A stretch of 64,000 nt of DNA from a virus (Duplodnaviria > Caudoviricetes): positions 1 through 64,000 of the IMG/VR virus record IMGVR_UViG_3300037067_010289; one strand, 5' to 3'. A program made the position numbers and the translations under genes. The number at the start of each line of letters is the position of its first letter. The stretch's first letter is position 1. Shown in pieces: positions 10,448 to 18,904 of the stretch. Below the pieces are notes generated by a model, which was not told the origin of the DNA, did no database searches, and saw only the letters and a program-made list of their open reading frames with translations.

Positions 10448-10953
10448 CTAAGGCGTCAAAAGCTACACGTAAATGGCGTTTAGACTGGAAAAAACGCGAT
10501 CCCGATGGCTTCCGGCAATATCGTAAAGATGAGTGTAGGAAGCACTATATTCGCCACAAAAGAAAAATGAATGCCTATAGTATTGCGTGGCACAAAAAGA
10601 ATAGAACTAGGGTGAATCGTACTAGAAAAATTCGTAGGCAAGTAAGAGGCCCTGAATACAGGGCGTCAGAACACCTGAAAGTTAAGTTTGGCATTACGTA
10701 TACTCAAAAAATGCAACTTTTAGCTGAACAGGGTGGTTGTTGTTTAATATGCGGGTGCACTAATCCTGGTCTTGCGCGTGGTGGAAAACTTCCAAATTGG
10801 GTTGTAGACCACGATCACCGATACGAAAAGTTAACTGGTGGTATTAAAATTAGAGGAATTTTGTGCATGACTTGCAATACATTGCTTGGAATGGCAAGGG
10901 ACAGTCAAGCAGTTCTTGCAGCCGCAATAGAGTACTTGCAAAAAAACAAGTAG
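10444..10953 (+). CDS. endonuclease VII-like homing endonuclease
   Basis: CLIC...VDHDH...RGILCMTCN motif; lies between terL and portal. Confidence 0.85.
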   Translation: MTKASKATRKWRLDWKKRDPDGFRQYRKDECRKHYIRHKRKMNAYSIAWHKKNRTRVNRTRKIRRQVRGPEYRASEHLKVKFGITYTQKMQLLAEQGGCCLICGCTNPGLARGGKLPNWVVDHDHRYEKLTGGIKIRGILCMTCNTLLGMARDSQAVLAAAIEYLQKNK

Positions 10954-10960
10954 GGTAATT

Positions 10961-13900
10961 ATGGCGCTTTTACCAGAACCTCCGAGCAATGTGCACATGC
11001 CTGTTGAGCCGAAAGAGGCTAAGCATGTACTGGCTACAGGTACGTGGACTGACGAAGCCGCCCTAAAAATCGTTCTACAAGACACTAATCGTGCTGAGAA
11101 CTTTGAGTCGACTAAGAGCTGGGTCATGGGTTGGGTTCAGGCGTCGACGCTATACCAGAGTCCTTGGACCTCAAGATTTTGGGAAGGCACGCAAAGCGAA
11201 CGCGCCAATGTTCCTCTTTTCACGGTAGCCACCCACGTTAACTCGTTGACGCCTCAAATCATGAAGGGGCTCTTTTATGACGAACCTCCTTTCATGATTC
11301 AGAATCGTCCAGGCACCAAGATATCAGCGGCGCGAGCAGCAGGTGCGATACTTGATTATCAACTTGAAGACGCGGACTTCCGCGAAAATTTACGCTTAGG
11401 CGTGATGAACGCCCTTCTATTTGGTACTACGATTTGGAAGTGGGGCTGGCAGGAGTACACGCGAGAGCGCGTGACGTATCGTCGTAAAACTAGCGGGTTG
11501 AAAATTCCCGATGGCATCACGGGTGAAGAAACTGTCATTGAGAACAATGATGACGACAATATTGAAGAAGAGGTTGTTGAAGAAGAAATTAGCCGCCCAT
11601 TCTTCGATCATATCGTAAACTTGCGGCACGTACTGGTTGATCCAGGGTTAAGTGTTCCGGACATTACCAAAGCTCGCTATGTCGTTCATCGTATGTACAT
11701 GACGTTCGATGAACTGGATAAGCTGCGCGAGCGTCCTGGTATAAAGTTGCCTTCGAAGGAAGAATTATTGATGCTATTCTTTCCTCCTACGGAGGAAGCA
11801 AAACCTGCGATTGCGGAAATCTCGATCCGTAATCCCCTCTGGGATGCACGTGCAGAACCTCGGTATGAAAACACCAGTGATGATCCGTTCGCAAAACCGT
11901 TAGAAGTGCTGGAACGTTGGGATGCTGAACGAGTTATCATGGTGCTCCAGCAAAAGCTGGTTATCCTTAACGAAAAAAACCCTTACGGAAAAATTCCGTT
12001 TTTCTCGGTTGGCTGGTGGGATGTTCCGGAAGCGTTTTGGGGAATGGGCCTTGGGAAGGCACAGCCGCTAGACGCTAAAATTCTTACTCCTTTGGGCTGG
12101 AAACAAATGGGGGATATTAAACCCGATGATTTAGTTATGGGCTCTGATGGAAAACCTCATAAGGTTTTGGAAGTTTTCCCCCAAGGAGAAAAAGAGGTTT
12201 TTAAGGTAACCTTTAGCGATGGGGCGACTACAGAATGCTGTAAAGAACATCTTTGGCAGATTGAAAGCGCATTGAGCAAACGTCCTTTGCGCCGAGGTTG
12301 GAAAACCAAGGTATTTCAACTTCAAGATTTTAAAGATGCATTGAAAACAAAAACAGGGGCTAACAAGTATTTTATTCCTATTACAGAGCCTATTGCGTTT
12401 TCAAAACAAGAACTACCGATCCATCCTTACTTATTGGGAATTCTCATTGGAGATGGAAATCTAACTACCGATACGCCACGATTTTCTAGTGCTGATGCTG
12501 AAATTGTTGAAGCAGTTCAAAAATTACTTCCCAAAGGAATGCAAATTGTAGGTGTTCCTAACCGGCGTTATGATTATAAAATAACATCAGTAGATCATAG
12601 GTGTAATACGGTTTTAAGAATTGTCAAAGAGTTGGGGCTTAACTGCAAAGCAGAGCACAAGTTTATTCCCGATATTTATAAGTTTTCTTCTATCGAACAA
12701 CGTAAAGAAATTTTGGCTGGATTGCTTGATAGCGACGGTACCGCTGGAAAAAATGGAGCCGCAAGCTTTTCTAGTTCGTCGGAACAGTTGTGCGATGACG
12801 TTCAATTTTTAGTTGAATCGTTAGGCGGAATAGCAAAAAAGTTTATTAAGCCTATCCCTGCACGAGGTAATTTTCCAGCTTATAGCCTTTCTATAGGCTT
12901 GGTATTTAATCCATTCAAACTTACTAGAAAAATAGAGCGATACAAACCACGAACAAAGTATATGCCTTCTCGTGGTTTTAGTGCTGTTGAAGCAGTGGGA
13001 ACTAAACCGTGCCAGTGTATTCTGGTTGATACACCGGACCATCTTTATTTAACAGATCACTGCATTGTTACACACAATACCGTAGGTTCTGACCAGCGGT
13101 TACAGCAGGGCGTGACTAATACGTGGCTTGACCAGCTAGCGCTGAATCTTAATGGCGTGTACACGCGAGTGCGCGGTAAGAGCGTTCCTACGCAGAGTAT
13201 CCGCGTATCCCCAGGCAAGATCATCGATGTGGACTCTAAGGATGACTTGAATCCTCTGCAAAGGTCGAATCCGGTTCCGGAAGCGTTACAAGCCTTGGAG
13301 CTTTCTGAGCGTCGAGCAGAGTCGGTATCGGGTGCTAACGAGTTTTCGACCCAAGGTGTTGCAGGAGCCAGCGGCCACTCGAATTTGGCGCGTACTGCGT
13401 CAGGCGCGAATTTACTAGCCGCAGGGTCTGGATCGCGTATCGAAGATTTTGTAGATAAGCTTGCGAATCAAGTTATTCTGCCTTTCTTGTATGAGGCGCA
13501 TGACCTGAACTGCAAGTTGCTCTCGCTGTCGTCGGTGAAGCATATTCTTAGTGATGAGTTGGAGCACGAATTTATCACCGAGAAACAGGGCGACATACTA
13601 GACATTGTTAACAGTCGTGTTAAGTTTTCAATCTTGGCTGGGGCTAAGCTGTCTTCTCGCCGCACCATGACGCAGGGCTTGCCGATGCTGATCCAGTTTT
13701 TGCAGGCTCAGCCTATTGTTTCGGCGCTTGCTATCGAGAAAAAGAAAGTTAGCGTTGAAGAACTGATTCGCATGTTCTTCGAGATTGCGGATTGGAAGAA
13801 TTACAACGACGTGATCGTGGAGATGACGCCGGAAGACGAACAGCGCTGGAAGGCTTCGCAGCCTGGGGCAGCAGTTCAGCAGCAACTCGCCGCTAAGGCG

Positions 13901-14059
13901 CAATTGCAACAGCAATCGTTTGAACAAAAACAGCAGCTGACTGACCAAGAGAATATTGCCCGAGCTGCACGCGAAGTTCTGCGGCAGGGTTTTGAAAAAG
14001 CCTCGGAGCCCTTGATGGTGGGCGGTGAGCCTGGAGGAAAAGCACTTGGGTCTGAATAG
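10961..14059 (+). CDS. portal protein (intein-containing; ~692 aa after splicing)
   Basis: Follows terL; NPYGKIPF, ARTASG and Gln-rich C-terminus typical of podovirus portals. Confidence 0.85.
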   Translation: MALLPEPPSNVHMPVEPKEAKHVLATGTWTDEAALKIVLQDTNRAENFESTKSWVMGWVQASTLYQSPWTSRFWEGTQSERANVPLFTVATHVNSLTPQIMKGLFYDEPPFMIQNRPGTKISAARAAGAILDYQLEDADFRENLRLGVMNALLFGTTIWKWGWQEYTRERVTYRRKTSGLKIPDGITGEETVIENNDDDNIEEEVVEEEISRPFFDHIVNLRHVLVDPGLSVPDITKARYVVHRMYMTFDELDKLRERPGIKLPSKEELLMLFFPPTEEAKPAIAEISIRNPLWDARAEPRYENTSDDPFAKPLEVLERWDAERVIMVLQQKLVILNEKNPYGKIPFFSVGWWDVPEAFWGMGLGKAQPLDAKILTPLGWKQMGDIKPDDLVMGSDGKPHKVLEVFPQGEKEVFKVTFSDGATTECCKEHLWQIESALSKRPLRRGWKTKVFQLQDFKDALKTKTGANKYFIPITEPIAFSKQELPIHPYLLGILIGDGNLTTDTPRFSSADAEIVEAVQKLLPKGMQIVGVPNRRYDYKITSVDHRCNTVLRIVKELGLNCKAEHKFIPDIYKFSSIEQRKEILAGLLDSDGTAGKNGAASFSSSSEQLCDDVQFLVESLGGIAKKFIKPIPARGNFPAYSLSIGLVFNPFKLTRKIERYKPRTKYMPSRGFSAVEAVGTKPCQCILVDTPDHLYLTDHCIVTHNTVGSDQRLQQGVTNTWLDQLALNLNGVYTRVRGKSVPTQSIRVSPGKIIDVDSKDDLNPLQRSNPVPEALQALELSERRAESVSGANEFSTQGVAGASGHSNLARTASGANLLAAGSGSRIEDFVDKLANQVILPFLYEAHDLNCKLLSLSSVKHILSDELEHEFITEKQGDILDIVNSRVKFSILAGAKLSSRRTMTQGLPMLIQFLQAQPIVSALAIEKKKVSVEELIRMFFEIADWKNYNDVIVEMTPEDEQRWKASQPGAAVQQQLAAKAQLQQQSFEQKQQLTDQENIARAAREVLRQGFEKASEPLMVGGEPGGKALGSE
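12059..13078 (+). mobile_element. Ala-start class 3 intein (340 aa) with LAGLIDADG endonuclease in portal
   Basis: GK|AQPLDAKILTP...EHLW...LGILIGDG...LAGLLDSDG...CQCILV...VTHN|T. Confidence 0.85.
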
Positions 14060-15794: not shown

Positions 15795-18011
15795 ATGAGC
15801 TATTCTCCTGCAAGTATTCTTACGTCGGGATCGCTGCCCAACCTCGTGGCTATCTACTATGAGCGGTCGGCAATTCCCAACCTGTAAATTGCCTTTGGGT
15901 TGGCTACATAAACGTTCTGAAAAATAGGAAGGCACAGACCCCGTTTATGTCGATGACTGACTTGTTTGGTCATCGTAAAAATCTGACTATATCCGTTAAT
16001 ATCTTAGGTTTTTTGTGGTATAGTAATAGTAAAAGAAAATCTAAGACAAGACGGAGCGAAGATTCTCATGAAAGACAACGATAAAACAAATTGGGCGTAT
16101 TTAGCTGGGTTGCTCGACGGAGAAGGTTGTTTTACGATAACAGGTACGTGGAAGAATCGTAAAGGTATTTGGCGCACGAAAACAGGGCCAAACACGTACT
16201 TTCACATCAACCTTATTATTAGTTTGTATAACACTGATCTTAAGGTTATGAAATGGTTAGTAGACCATTTCGGTGGTGTGTATTATGTTCATCATCCTTC
16301 TAAAAAACCGAGTCACAAAATAGGGTATTCGTGGCATCCAAAAGGTGCCAAGAATAAAGAGCTTCTTCTTTTGGGAATTTTACCGTATCTGGTAATCAAA
16401 AGAGAACAGGCGAAACTTTCTCTTGAATATATCCGGTTGGACGGGAAGGCTTGTCAAGAAAAACGGTTAGAACTGAGAGAAAAGATTCAAACCCTTAATG
16501 GACACGGCATGGGAAAACGCCTAACGACTAATATGTCAGACGGCCCTTCGGGGTTGAAGATAGAGTCTGGGCTTAGTGGCGACACTAAGAGTGCTCTTGA
16601 GGTGACTCAAGCTGTGGCCAGAACCACAGAGCTTTTGCCGCAAGTTAGTGAAAGCGTAGCCTAAACACAACTGAAACAGAAACCGTTGCCTTTGCGTTCT
16701 GGGAACCAAATTCAATTTTTCACCTACAGTTTGCTTTCCGGCAATACCGCGCAAGCAGCTGAAGGAACCGTGGGTTCGCCCATCGCGGAATCTTCGACCA
16801 AGATTATCGCAACCGTTGGGCAGTACGCGGATTACATTAACAGTTCGGACCTGAGTATGGATGTGGCAATCGACGACCCGTCGTTGCTGCAAAACCTCTC
16901 TACCGAACTCAACTATCGTTTGGCGTTGACGCTGAACTCTCTGGTTCAGATCACGGCAGACGCGGCCCAGGGCGTCGATGGTTCGGTGACGATTACCTTG
17001 GCTGATGGTTCTTATCTGACGGCGAATAACATTCGTTCGGCGTGCCAGCAACTGGCGGGTATCAATGCTCGTCCGTTGACCGGCGACGGCTACTACGGTG
17101 GGATTATCCATCCGTTCGTAGTCCGCGACGTGCTGAATGATACGTCGTTCAACGGCTTGACCGATATCTTGAAGCGGTCGGCTGACGGTCAAGAAAAACT
17201 GCTTGCACCGGTGCCCAACGAGGATACGATCACGTTTGGCGGCGTGAAATTCAAGCAGACAACCACTACTCCGACGACAACCATTTCCGGCAACACTTAC
17301 TACAACACGTATTTGTTTGCTGACGATGCGCTGTTTTCGGTTTTCCTTGGGAAGAACCCTCAAACTGGTGAGAAGAACTACCGTCTTCTTATCCAGGAGG
17401 CACCAGCTCAAGGCAGCGTAGCCGATCCGGCTCGCCAAATCGGTGGATACAGCGACCTGTCCACTGTAGACCTTATGTAGCATGAGGGGTCAGCTACAAC
17501 GTTGTATTTAACGGCGTTGTCTAAAGTTCTCCTGATTGACTCGAACCCTGAGACGGCAACGAGGCGGAACCCGAAAGGGACCGTGAGAGACTGAGCGGAG
17601 AACCCCGAAAGGGATGCAACAGTCCGTCCTTGCGCTAAATGAAGTGCAAGAGGCTGGCAGAAATGACCAGCCCCGCCGCAAGGCGAGTAACACCGAGTAA
17701 ATACACCAACACACTGCGTAATTAATCCGGGGCGCAGTTGAATTGTCATGGTAATCCGCCCGGTTCTACAATGACAATTCGGAGACTTAACAGATTGCGG
17801 GTCTCCTTAAACTCTCTCTGATTGACTTGAACGCTGAAATGCCAACAAGGGGCAAGCCGAAAGGTAGCCTGAACGACTAAGCGAGAGAGCAGCGAAAGCT
17901 GATGCGATAGTCTGCACTGCAAGAAATAGTAACTTGCAGAGGCTGGCAGAAATGACCAGCCCCGCCGTAAGGCGAGTAACAAACGGCCAATCCGAAACGT
18001 CCTCAAGCTAG
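15795..18011 (+). CDS. major capsid protein (N4-gp56-like), 7 exons: join(15795..15883,15928..15958,16674..17448,17487..17502,17698..17719,17759..17787,17987..18011), 328 aa
   Basis: Joined exons total 987 nt with no internal stop: MSYSPAS...AIPNLKAQTPFMSMTKQKPLPLRSGNQIQFF...DPARQIGGWVSYNVKYTNTLRPGSTMTIRRLQSETSSS*; every 5' exon ends in U and every intron ends in G. Confidence 0.85.
15884..15927 (+). other. core-less group I-like mini-intron A (44 nt)
   Basis: P1 CCAACCU/GGGUUGG with U.G; P10 UGCCUUU/GAAGGCA; terminal G; in-frame TAA if retained. Confidence 0.75.
16016..16024 (+). promoter_or_regulatory. possible extended -10 promoter for the intron-encoded endonuclease
   Basis: TG-G-TATAGT about 45 nt upstream of the LAGLIDADG start, in an AT-rich loop of the intron. 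Confidence 0.4.
16068..16664 (+). CDS. single-motif LAGLIDADG homing endonuclease (intron-encoded)
   Basis: WAYLAGLLDGEG and LPYLVIKREQA motifs. Confidence 0.9.
   Translation: MKDNDKTNWAYLAGLLDGEGCFTITGTWKNRKGIWRTKTGPNTYFHINLIISLYNTDLKVMKWLVDHFGGVYYVHHPSKKPSHKIGYSWHPKGAKNKELLLLGILPYLVIKREQAKLSLEYIRLDGKACQEKRLELREKIQTLNGHGMGKRLTTNMSDGPSGLKIESGLSGDTKSALEVTQAVARTTELLPQVSESVA
17449..17486 (+). other. core-less group I-like mini-intron C (38 nt)
   Basis: P1 GGUGGAU/GUCCACU with U.G; P10 GACCU/GGGUC; terminal G; removal creates a Trp codon (U|GG). Confidence 0.75.
17503..17697 (+). ncRNA. compact ORF-less group I intron D (195 nt)
   Basis: P1 ACAACGU/GCGUUGU, P10 UGUAUUUA/UAAAUACA, P3 GUUCUCC/GGAGAAC, P7 GACUG/CAGUC, GNRA hairpins, terminal G. 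Confidence 0.9.
17720..17758 (+). other. core-less group I-like mini-intron E (39 nt)
   Basis: P1 ACUGCGU/GCGCAGU with U.G; P10 CCGGG/CCCGG; terminal G; in-frame TAA if retained. Confidence 0.75.
17788..17986 (+). ncRNA. compact ORF-less group I intron F (199 nt)
   Basis: P1 GGAGACU/GGUCUCC, P10 GAUUG/CAAUC, P3 CUCUCUC/GAGAGAG, P7 GACUA/UAGUC, terminal G. Confidence 0.9.
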
Positions 18012-18027
18012 GATTATCGCAGAAATG

Positions 18028-18036
18028 TGATATAAT
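18028..18036 (+). promoter_or_regulatory. extended -10 promoter upstream of the GIY-YIG gene
   Basis: TG-A-TATAAT perfect consensus. Confidence 0.6.
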
Positions 18037-18109
18037 AGAATGAGGGCAGTCTGGTTTGGGGTGGTGCCTCCACACCGCCCCAAATCAGCAAAACTCATGG
18101 AGGTGGGTT

Positions 18110-18904
18110 TTGTATCGCTTATACTTAATAACAAATAGCGTTAATCAAAAAGTTTATATAGGCCAAACGGTTAGAAGTTTAAAAGCACGATGGAGGTCGC
18201 ATCTAAGTGCTTCCAAAGAGGCTAGAGTAAAAGATGTCTACTTTTATCGCGCTATTAACAAATATGGGCCAGCAGCTTTTACTATGGAAGAACTGGCTCA
18301 AACTGAAAGTAAAGTAGAAATTGATAGGCTAGAAAAATTTTGGATTGGTTTTTGCTTGTCCTTTCAAAAAGACAAAGGCTATAACACGACCTTTGGCGGC
18401 GAAGGTGGGAGACAAACCCCCGAGGTTCGTCGAAAAATTGGAGAAGCATCGAAACGACTTTGGCAAGACCCTGATTTTCGAAAAAGAAGTTGTCAAACAC
18501 GAAAAGGCTTGCTTGTTGGGGCGCGAAACCCCATGTTTGGCAAGAGTTCTTTTAAAGGTAAAAAGCATACGGACCTAACTAAACTTAAGTTAAGTCTTAT
18601 TAAAAAAGAACAGTTTTCTGACCCTAGCTTTAAACTAAAAATGACTTTGGCCAGCACAGGTAAGCACCACACAGCAGCGGGGCGAGCTAATATTTCTCGT
18701 GGGCTGCAAGGAAACCAATATCGTAAAGGCATACCCCACTCGGAAGAAGTAAAAGAACGAATTCGTAATTCAATGAAAGCTGCGTGGGTTCTTAGAAAGA
18801 ATAAAAAGTTTAATTCTGCCCAAGAGTTGTCCGAAACCGGATTGGGGAAAGACAAAAACTTAGCAGAATCTATGGATGCACCGATTACCCTTGCCGGGGT
18901 TTGA
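18110..18904 (+). CDS. GIY-YIG homing endonuclease with NUMOD3-like repeats (free-standing)
   Basis: LYLITNSVNQKVYIGQT, GYN-x-T-x-GG, NPMFGK, KHT and PHSEE repeats; TTG start after GGAGG. Confidence 0.85.
   Translation: MYRLYLITNSVNQKVYIGQTVRSLKARWRSHLSASKEARVKDVYFYRAINKYGPAAFTMEELAQTESKVEIDRLEKFWIGFCLSFQKDKGYNTTFGGEGGRQTPEVRRKIGEASKRLWQDPDFRKRSCQTRKGLLVGARNPMFGKSSFKGKKHTDLTKLKLSLIKKEQFSDPSFKLKMTLASTGKHHTAAGRANISRGLQGNQYRKGIPHSEEVKERIRNSMKAAWVLRKNKKFNSAQELSETGLGKDKNLAESMDAPITLAGV

What the first reader, a model, noticed from the sequence alone, without database searches (positions are those of the whole stretch)
17720..17787. Mini-intron E with a 10-bp antisense tether, between two full introns
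Seen: GAATTGTCAT (17740-17749) is the exact complement of ATGACAATTC (17771-17780), which abuts the P1 strand of intron F. E lies 22 nt after intron D and 29 nt before intron F. Inference: the tether points to F as the catalytic partner, which gives a clean test of directionality.
Basis: partly seen in the sequence, partly recalled or inferred. Interest (0 to 1): 0.82.

Follow-up and report, generated by a model that had tools for sequence, protein, structure and literature searches.

The report
Mini-intron helix clamping its downstream micro-exon
A 39-base remnant of a self-splicing intron in a phage capsid gene has kept its splice-site guides and a conserved 10-base helix onto the next 29-base exon, but has no catalytic part, so it probably borrows the ribozyme of a neighbouring full intron.

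Summary
17740-17749 is the exact complement of 17771-17780. E is 17720-17758 (39 nt), 22 nt after intron D and 29 nt before intron F. The helix ends where F's P1 strand (17781-17787) begins.

E lies in the major capsid gene. It follows a U, ends in G, and has a 7-bp P1 closed by U.G and a 5-bp P10. It has no P3-P9 core.

The helix is selected. The only ortholog of E (L046) keeps it through two double compensatory changes. The same kind of helix occurs in about 20 of 21 mini-introns found in 16 related capsid gene variants.

Six mini-introns have this helix with no full intron within 80 nt. Published fungal 63-75-nt group I introns have an equivalent pairing called "PM". The helix is therefore part of the mini-intron's own fold, holding the 3' splice site in a hairpin loop. 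It is not specifically a pointer to F.

A downstream partner is supported by position instead: 14 of 20 mini-introns have a full intron 16-52 nt downstream, and 2 have one within 60 nt upstream.

No RNA data could be obtained. The scan has noted core-less mini-introns before in other phage capsid genes. I found no publication describing them.

The parts
17503..17697 (+). Full group I intron D (195 nt), upstream neighbour of E
   Evidence: Removing it restores the conserved capsid residues N-V-K-Y. It has U at -1 and G at its last base (sequence). It belongs to a ~200-nt intron family whose P3, P9 and P9.1 covary, and P7 changes compensatorily from GACUA/UAGUC to GACUG/CAGUC. nhmmer E = 4.5e-42.
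17698..17719 (+). 22-nt micro-exon (residues (V)KYTNTLR). Its last 7 nt, 17713-17719, are the exon strand of P1(E).
   Evidence: P1 pairing.
17720..17758 (+). Mini-intron E, 39 nt, with no catalytic core. An in-frame TAA follows one codon into it.
   Evidence: Removing it restores ...TLR|PGSTM... exactly as in intron-less relatives. U at 17719, G at 17758. There is no room for P3-P9.
17727..17738 (+). Internal guide sequence of E. 17732-17738 pairs with 17713-17719 (P1, 7 bp, U17719.G17732 at the splice site). 17727-17731 pairs with 17759-17763 (P10, 5 bp).
   Evidence: P1 is in the minimum-energy fold.
17740..17753 (+). Intron arm of the 'tether' (T) helix. The core is 17740-17749, with an extension to 17753.
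   Evidence: It is kept in L046 with compensatory changes.
17759..17787 (+). 29-nt micro-exon (residues PGSTMTIRR + 2 nt). It holds the P10 strand (17759-17763), the exon arm of T (17767-17780, core 17771-17780) and the P1(F) strand (17781-17787).
17788..17986 (+). Full group I intron F (199 nt), downstream neighbour and most likely helper. Its guide 17800-17806 pairs with 17781-17787.
   Evidence: Removing it restores R-L-Q-S-E-T-S-S-S-stop. U at 17787, G at 17986 (sequence). Same intron family as D. nhmmer E = 3.4e-41.
17987..18011 (+). Last capsid exon, including the stop codon

Best explanation
E is a group I intron that has lost its whole catalytic core and kept only what a group I ribozyme needs in a substrate.

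T pairs E's 3' half with exon positions 13-22 (9-22 with its extension). This puts the 3' splice site in a 13-nt hairpin loop. That loop pairs with the loop of the P1 hairpin; this loop-loop pairing is P10. T is thus part of the mini-intron's own fold and is equivalent to the 'PM' pairing of the small fungal group I introns. It holds the correct 3' splice site beside the 5' one.

The chemistry must come from a full intron's core on the same capsid mRNA. F is the most likely source. P1(E), T and P1(F) are three consecutive helices. E's P1 is therefore joined to F's P3 in the way that P1 is joined to P3 through P2 and P2.1 in larger group I introns.

Shown: the anatomy, conservation, compensatory change and positional bias. 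Inferred: RNA-level removal, dependence on a helper, and F as that helper.
For: 1. The exon map and exact restoration of the conserved capsid C-terminus.
2. A U(-1)/G(last) placement is possible in 21 of 21 distinct mini-introns. Every other dinucleotide fits 3 or fewer.
3. P1 is 6-10 bp with U.G in 21 of 22 listed, and P10 is 3-9 bp.
4. T helix: p = 0.002 for E. Twelve of 20 mini-introns have p < 0.05, and the Fisher combined p is 3e-12.
5. WIN versus L046 in register: exon position 19 goes U-A to C-G, position 20 A-U to G-C, position 18 U-A to U.G, and position 12 from mismatch to C-G.
6. Full introns sit at exactly the E site in L030, L070, L087 and L153. Their 5' ends (guide region) resemble E's, which fits origin by core deletion.
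7. Every mini-bearing capsid gene that can be assessed also has at least one full intron.
8. Fourteen of 20 mini-introns have a full intron 16-52 nt downstream. Only 2 have one within 60 nt upstream.
9. Intron B's core lies about 540 nt after its own P1, so this family tolerates a long P1-to-core link.
10. Literature: upstream P1 plus downstream core can act as one large ribozyme in engineered tandem introns (PMC10136302). A guide sequence supplied in trans works with an Azoarcus core (PMC2709566).
Against: T helices exist in six mini-introns with no adjacent full intron, so T does not need a neighbouring P1. Abutment is not significantly above what short micro-exons force. Only two E orthologs exist, and both have full introns on both sides. 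F's own P1 competes for F's core. A 67-nt fungal mini-intron is reported to self-splice (PMC3160393), so helper dependence is not logically required.
Confidence: 0.5

Rival explanations
1. E depends on a helper but has no fixed partner. Any family core (D, F or B, including excised intron RNAs with an empty substrate site) docks E's preformed P1 in trans. T only shapes the mini-intron, and closeness to F gives at most a kinetic advantage.
For: Six mini-introns have a T helix while the nearest full intron is 80-180 nt away (L032, L041, L044 twice, L062, L112). D and F are close paralogs. Abutment is not significant in the positional control.
Against: There is a strong excess of full introns 16-52 nt downstream over upstream (14 versus 2). 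Helices ending within 3 nt of the next P1 occur in 11 of 14 adjacent pairs.
Confidence: 0.27
2. E splices without any full intron's core, as is claimed for the 67-nt Phialophora intron. Flanking exon RNA supplies the structure, or a host or phage protein does.
For: PMC3160393 reports small introns with P1, P10 and a mid-intron-to-3'-exon pairing that splice in vitro when about 300 nt of flank is present.
Against: Those fungal introns keep a P7-like hairpin with a G-binding site. E, and the 33-nt L046 ortholog, have no sequence left for one. No mini-bearing gene lacks a full intron.
Confidence: 0.1
3. D, the upstream intron 22 nt away, is the catalytic partner of E.
For: D is closer than F. Both E orthologs have an upstream full intron 22-30 nt away.
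Against: Twelve of 14 mini-introns with an adjacent full intron have none within 60 nt upstream. No helix links E to D. D can fold and splice out before E is transcribed.
Confidence: 0.06
4. E is not removed from RNA. Ribosomes hop over it (translational bypass as in T4 gene 60), or the helix is a chance or DNA-level palindrome in a dead gene.
For: A stop codon lies one codon into E, and hairpins flank it.
Against: The take-off codon CGT and the landing triplet CCG do not match. Mini-intron C splits a Trp codon and A's triplets also mismatch (sequence). The U/G boundary rule holds in 21 of 21. U.G wobbles cannot arise from templated DNA synthesis. Compensatory changes are seen. The genome is a complete 94-kb record with terminal repeats.
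Confidence: 0.03

Closest known systems
Small ('degenerate') group I introns of fungal SSU rDNA: Phialophora PaSSU, Arthonia and Porpidia, 56-81 nt (PMC3160393)
   Same: They are tiny introns that keep P1 with G.U at the 5' splice site and P10. [quoted passage not shown] They appear to derive from full introns by internal deletion.
   Different: The fungal ones keep a P7-like hairpin with a G site, end in U, sit in rRNA, have one origin and one or two sites, and are reported to self-splice. The phage ones are 31-57 nt, have no P7, end in G, and sit in a protein-coding gene at 8 or more sites. They usually lie 16-52 nt upstream of a full intron.
Tandem group I introns flanking a short exon (engineered Tetrahymena pairs, PMC10136302; natural phage examples such as Twort orf142, cited from my own knowledge)
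   Same: Two introns are separated by a micro-exon. There is experimental evidence that an upstream P1 can be used with a downstream core, acting as a 'single large ribozyme'.
   Different: In those cases both introns have full cores and the cooperative reaction skips the exon. Here the upstream intron has no core but has its own P10 and terminal G, so the micro-exon would be kept. A relative, L153, has the full-plus-full state 24 nt apart.
Group I ribozymes acting on substrates or guides supplied in trans (Azoarcus core lacking its guide, PMC2709566)
   Same: A core can cleave and ligate at a P1 that it does not carry covalently.
   Different: Those are laboratory constructs. No natural intron is known to rely on this.
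Euglena plastid group III introns and other core-reduced group II introns (from my own knowledge)
   Same: They are streamlined introns that have lost catalytic domains and are thought to need help in trans.
   Different: They belong to a different intron class with different chemistry, and are about 100 nt rather than 31-57 nt.
T4 gene 60 translational bypass (from my own knowledge)
   Same: A short untranslated gap inside a phage gene, with a stop codon at its start and a hairpin.
   Different: Bypass needs matching take-off and landing codons, which are absent here. It has no U.G/P10/terminal-G signature.

Membership tests
Group I intron (substrate elements) | 5' exon ends in U, paired to G of an internal guide in P1 | tested here: met
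   U17719.G17732 closes a 7-bp P1. The same holds in 21 of 21 mini-introns.
Group I intron (substrate elements) | P10 between the guide and the start of the 3' exon, with G as the last intron base | tested here: met
   17727-17731 x 17759-17763, and G17758.
Group I intron (self-splicing ribozyme) | Catalytic core P3-P9 with a G-binding site in P7 | tested here: not met
   E is 39 nt. About 19 nt are P1 loop and guide, 10-14 nt are the T arm and 5-9 nt are tail. There is no Rfam hit. E is not in the nhmmer family hits.
Group I intron (self-splicing ribozyme) | Removal from RNA by two transesterifications | not testable with these tools
No host or culture is known.
Fungal small group I introns (PaSSU type, PMC3160393) | PM: pairing of the mid-intron with the 3' exon | tested here: met
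   T helix 17740-17749 x 17771-17780. It is present in about 20 of 21 mini-introns.
Fungal small group I introns (PaSSU type, PMC3160393) | P7-like hairpin with an unpaired base next to a G-C pair | tested here: not met
   No such hairpin appears in E or in the 33-nt L046 ortholog.
Translational bypass element (T4 gene 60 type) | Matching take-off and landing codons flanking the gap, with exon ends on codon boundaries | tested here: not met
   CGT versus CCG for E. C splits a Trp codon.
Full group I intron (D and F as helpers) | Covarying P3, P7 and P9 core helices | tested here: met
   16-member alignment: all 6 P3 pairs show compensatory changes, P9 and P9.1 covary, and P7 goes from GACUA/UAGUC to GACUG/CAGUC. 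Rfam's Intron_gpI model itself does not detect D or F.

The most novel reading that the evidence does not exclude
One ribozyme, two introns. E plus the 29-nt micro-exon plus F fold as a single composite group I ribozyme. In it, P1(E) is an alternative substrate helix, the T helix plays the part of P2, and P1(F) plays the part of P2.1. F's core first removes the core-less E and then removes itself. Phage capsid genes would then carry a population of non-autonomous 'satellite' introns that parasitise autonomous ones, a group I counterpart of non-autonomous mobile elements and of the split that led from group II introns to the spliceosome.
Probability: 0.35. Interest if true: 0.9.

Novelty: new variant of a known kind. 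Interest (0 to 1): 0.74.

Why it matters
Group I introns are defined by catalysing their own removal. An essential gene that needs 31-57-nt introns with no catalytic core removed means that natural introns depend on another intron's ribozyme, or on something unknown.

That would be the first natural case of group I catalysis shared between introns. It would also be a simple model for how self-splicing introns can decay into substrates of a trans-acting machine.

The T helix matters because, besides P1, P10 and the terminal G, it is the only structured element these mini-introns keep. It is conserved through compensatory change. It has an independent counterpart in fungal mini-introns. It is therefore probably the minimal device that keeps the right 3' splice site next to the 5' one.

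The system is small (about 600 nt for C-D-E-F) and directly testable in vitro.

Tried and rejected
- Rfam: there was no hit to D, E or F, even at E <= 10. Only intron B scored, at 22.5 bits.
- Phage GenBank: there was no nucleotide match. The nearest named capsid protein is Tunturiibacter phage Tunturi_3, at 39% identity.
- More E orthologs: a specific pattern found only the L046 contig. A looser P1-hairpin pattern returned 118 mostly unrelated hairpins. After filtering, this gave three further candidate full introns starting at an identical exon sequence (L153, L165, L212). Only L153 could be confirmed as the capsid E site; the capsid map of the other two failed. The metagenome scan added 80 capsid loci but no E-site mini-intron.
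- Translational bypass was rejected on codon mismatch.
- A DNA-level snap-back or templated-insertion origin was rejected because the 5' splice-site pair is always U.G and pairing is maintained after divergence.
- 'Abutment to the next P1 is a rule' was tested. The shuffle test is positive, but it confounds existence of the helix with its position. The positional control found abutment in 5 of 10 longer micro-exons, against my hand estimate of about 3 expected. I treat this as suggestive only.
- I looked for complementarity between E's unpaired segments and loops of D or F and saw none by eye. This was not tested formally.

Full report
CONTEXT. The window is the first 64 kb of a complete 94,289-bp virus record with terminal repeats. 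The finding lies in the major capsid gene, which starts at 15795. The nearest named relative is the major head protein of Tunturiibacter phage Tunturi_3, at 39% identity. A protein-guided scan of viral contigs gave 47 related loci. A metagenome scan gave 80 more. Many of these encode an uninterrupted 328-aa capsid protein whose C-terminus reads ...QIGGWVSYNVKYTNTLRPGSTM(T/V)IRRLQSETSSS.

EXON MAP. I chained the window's three reading frames against an intron-less relative. I then searched for boundaries that restore the protein. This gives:
- exon to 15883
- A 15884-15927 (44 nt)
- exon 15928-15958
- B 15959-16673 (715 nt, with a LAGLIDADG ORF)
- exon 16674-17448
- C 17449-17486 (38 nt)
- exon 17487-17502
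- D 17503-17697
- exon 17698-17719
- E 17720-17758 (39 nt)
- exon 17759-17787
- F 17788-17986
- exon 17987-18011

D and F belong to a ~200-nt intron family. In a 16-member alignment, all six P3 pairs and the P9 and P9.1 helices show compensatory changes, and P7 covaries. nhmmer finds only three family cores in the window: B (16497-16640), D and F. Rfam's group I model misses D and F entirely.

THE OBSERVATION. 17740-17749 and 17771-17780 are exact complements. This is the only inverted repeat of 9 nt or more in 17400-18100, and it extends to 13 of 14 positions (17740-17753 x 17767-17780). Shuffles of E's post-guide segment reach it in 0.2% of trials. The fold of 17706-17812 consists of three back-to-back hairpins:
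- P1(E): 17713-17719 x 17732-17738, with U17719.G17732 closing the loop.
- The T helix, whose 13-nt loop contains the 3' splice site (17758|17759).
- P1(F).

The z-score is -3.3, and no shuffle folds as well. P10 (17727-17731 x 17759-17763) is then a loop-loop contact between the first two hairpins.

E IS A GROUP I-TYPE INTRON WITHOUT A CORE. I imposed no boundary rule and took the best protein-restoring placements. All 21 distinct mini-introns (31-57 nt) in the window and its relatives allow U before the intron and G as its last base. No other base combination fits more than 3 of the 21. P1 is 6-10 bp with U.G at the junction in 21 of 22 listed, and P10 is 3-9 bp. E has no sequence left for P3-P9. 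Translational bypass is excluded, because CGT and CCG do not match and C splits a Trp codon. A DNA-level palindrome origin does not explain obligatory U.G pairs.

Full introns sit at exactly the E site in L030, L070, L087 and L153. Their 5' ends (guide region) resemble E's. L153 has two full introns 24 nt apart in this region, a plausible ancestral state.

THE HELIX IS SELECTED. The only ortholog of E is L046 2002-2034, 33 nt, followed by a 29-nt micro-exon and an F ortholog. It keeps a 9-bp helix in the same register. Relative to the window:
- exon position 19 changes U-A to C-G
- position 20 changes A-U to G-C
- position 18 changes U-A to U.G
- position 12 changes from a mismatch to C-G

The exon changes here alter the protein (Ile to Ala), and the intron followed them. 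Across mini-introns, a helix between the post-guide half and the 3' exon is the rule. It is 6-11 bp, 12 of 20 have a shuffle p < 0.05, and the combined p is 3e-12. In L070 and L030 it is a two-part helix covering most of a 38-nt micro-exon.

DOES IT POINT TO F? The evidence is mixed.

For:
- In 11 of 14 mini-introns with an adjacent downstream intron, a helix of score 6 or more ends within 3 nt of that intron's P1 strand (shuffle p < 4e-4).
- For E the junction is exact.

Against:
- Six mini-introns (L032, L041, L044 twice, L062, L112) have the helix although the next full intron is 80-180 nt away.
- The helix starts at a fairly constant distance from the mini-intron's own 3' splice site.
- Among micro-exons of 24 nt or more, the best helix abuts the next P1 in 5 of 10 cases, against my hand estimate of about 3 expected from available space (counts).
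- Published fungal 63-75-nt group I introns have the same kind of pairing, named PM, with no neighbouring intron (PMC3160393).

I conclude that T is an intrinsic part of the mini-intron fold. It may additionally stack on P1(F).

WHO CATALYSES? This part is inferred. Every assessable capsid gene with a mini-intron also has a full intron. Fourteen of 20 mini-introns have a full intron's 5' splice site 16-52 nt downstream, in at least eight different site combinations. Only E and its ortholog have one within 60 nt upstream, and both of those also have one downstream.

The dependence appears to run downstream in a chain. In L030, L070 and L087, the E-site intron is full and sits downstream of a C-site mini-intron. 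In the window, the E-site intron is the mini and F sits downstream of it.

Topology gives a reason. After E's guide comes T, then the P1(F) hairpin, then a short A-rich linker, then P3 of F. This is the order P1, P2, P2.1, P3 found in larger group I introns. Intron B shows that the family tolerates about 540 nt between P1 and core. Engineered tandem Tetrahymena introns can form one large ribozyme from an upstream P1 and a downstream core (PMC10136302). An Azoarcus core works with a guide supplied in trans (PMC2709566). In such tandem arrangements the known risk is exon skipping. T and P10 would counter this by fixing E's own 3' splice site next to P1(E).

LIMITS. No RNA data were available. 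Only two E orthologs exist, and both have full introns on both sides. The positional counts include orthologous sites, so they are not fully independent. The P2-like reading of T is a topological argument, not a structure.

NOVELTY. I found no paper describing core-less group I mini-introns in phages, or introns that borrow a neighbour's core. The fungal small introns are the closest published kind. This scan has already noted core-less mini-introns in other phage capsid genes. The phenomenon is therefore not unique to this genome. What this finding adds is evidence that the exon-pairing helix is a conserved, compensated element of their architecture.

Noticed in passing
window 18056-18904: The GIY-YIG endonuclease ORF lies after the capsid stop codon (18009-18011). 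It is free-standing and not inside intron F.
   Followed up: partly
window 17503-17986 and 15959-16673: Rfam's Intron_gpI model does not detect D or F even at E <= 10, and scores B at only 22.5 bits. This ~200-nt P2-less intron family is very common in these soil phage capsid genes and is invisible to the standard model.
   Followed up: partly
L105:1622-5110: One relative's capsid gene carries nine insertions, eight full introns and one mini-intron, in a 328-codon gene.
   Followed up: no
L070:1171-1255: A 47-nt mini-intron has two nested 10-bp helices that pair with positions 8-30 of its 38-nt micro-exon, so it is antisense to almost the whole exon.
   Followed up: partly
L153 (reverse strand) 596-870: Two full family introns lie 24 nt apart, at the E site and at residue 319. 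This is a likely ancestral state of the E-plus-F arrangement.
   Followed up: partly
window and loci, last 14 nt of the introns: Full family introns end in a conserved GTAACA + 3-5 nt + G tail. Several mini-introns keep a similar tail (L047, L121, L087, L105, and E's GGTAATCCG). This suggests shared 3' splice-site recognition.
   Followed up: partly
L032:3143-3184 and L041:3115-3165: Mini-introns sit at residue 40, exactly the site of the window's 715-nt intron B. Their P10 is compensated: exon AAACAG becomes AAGCAG and the guide changes accordingly.
   Followed up: partly
window 10931-14059: The portal ORF (1042 aa) contains an intein with a LAGLIDADG-type endonuclease region.
   Followed up: no
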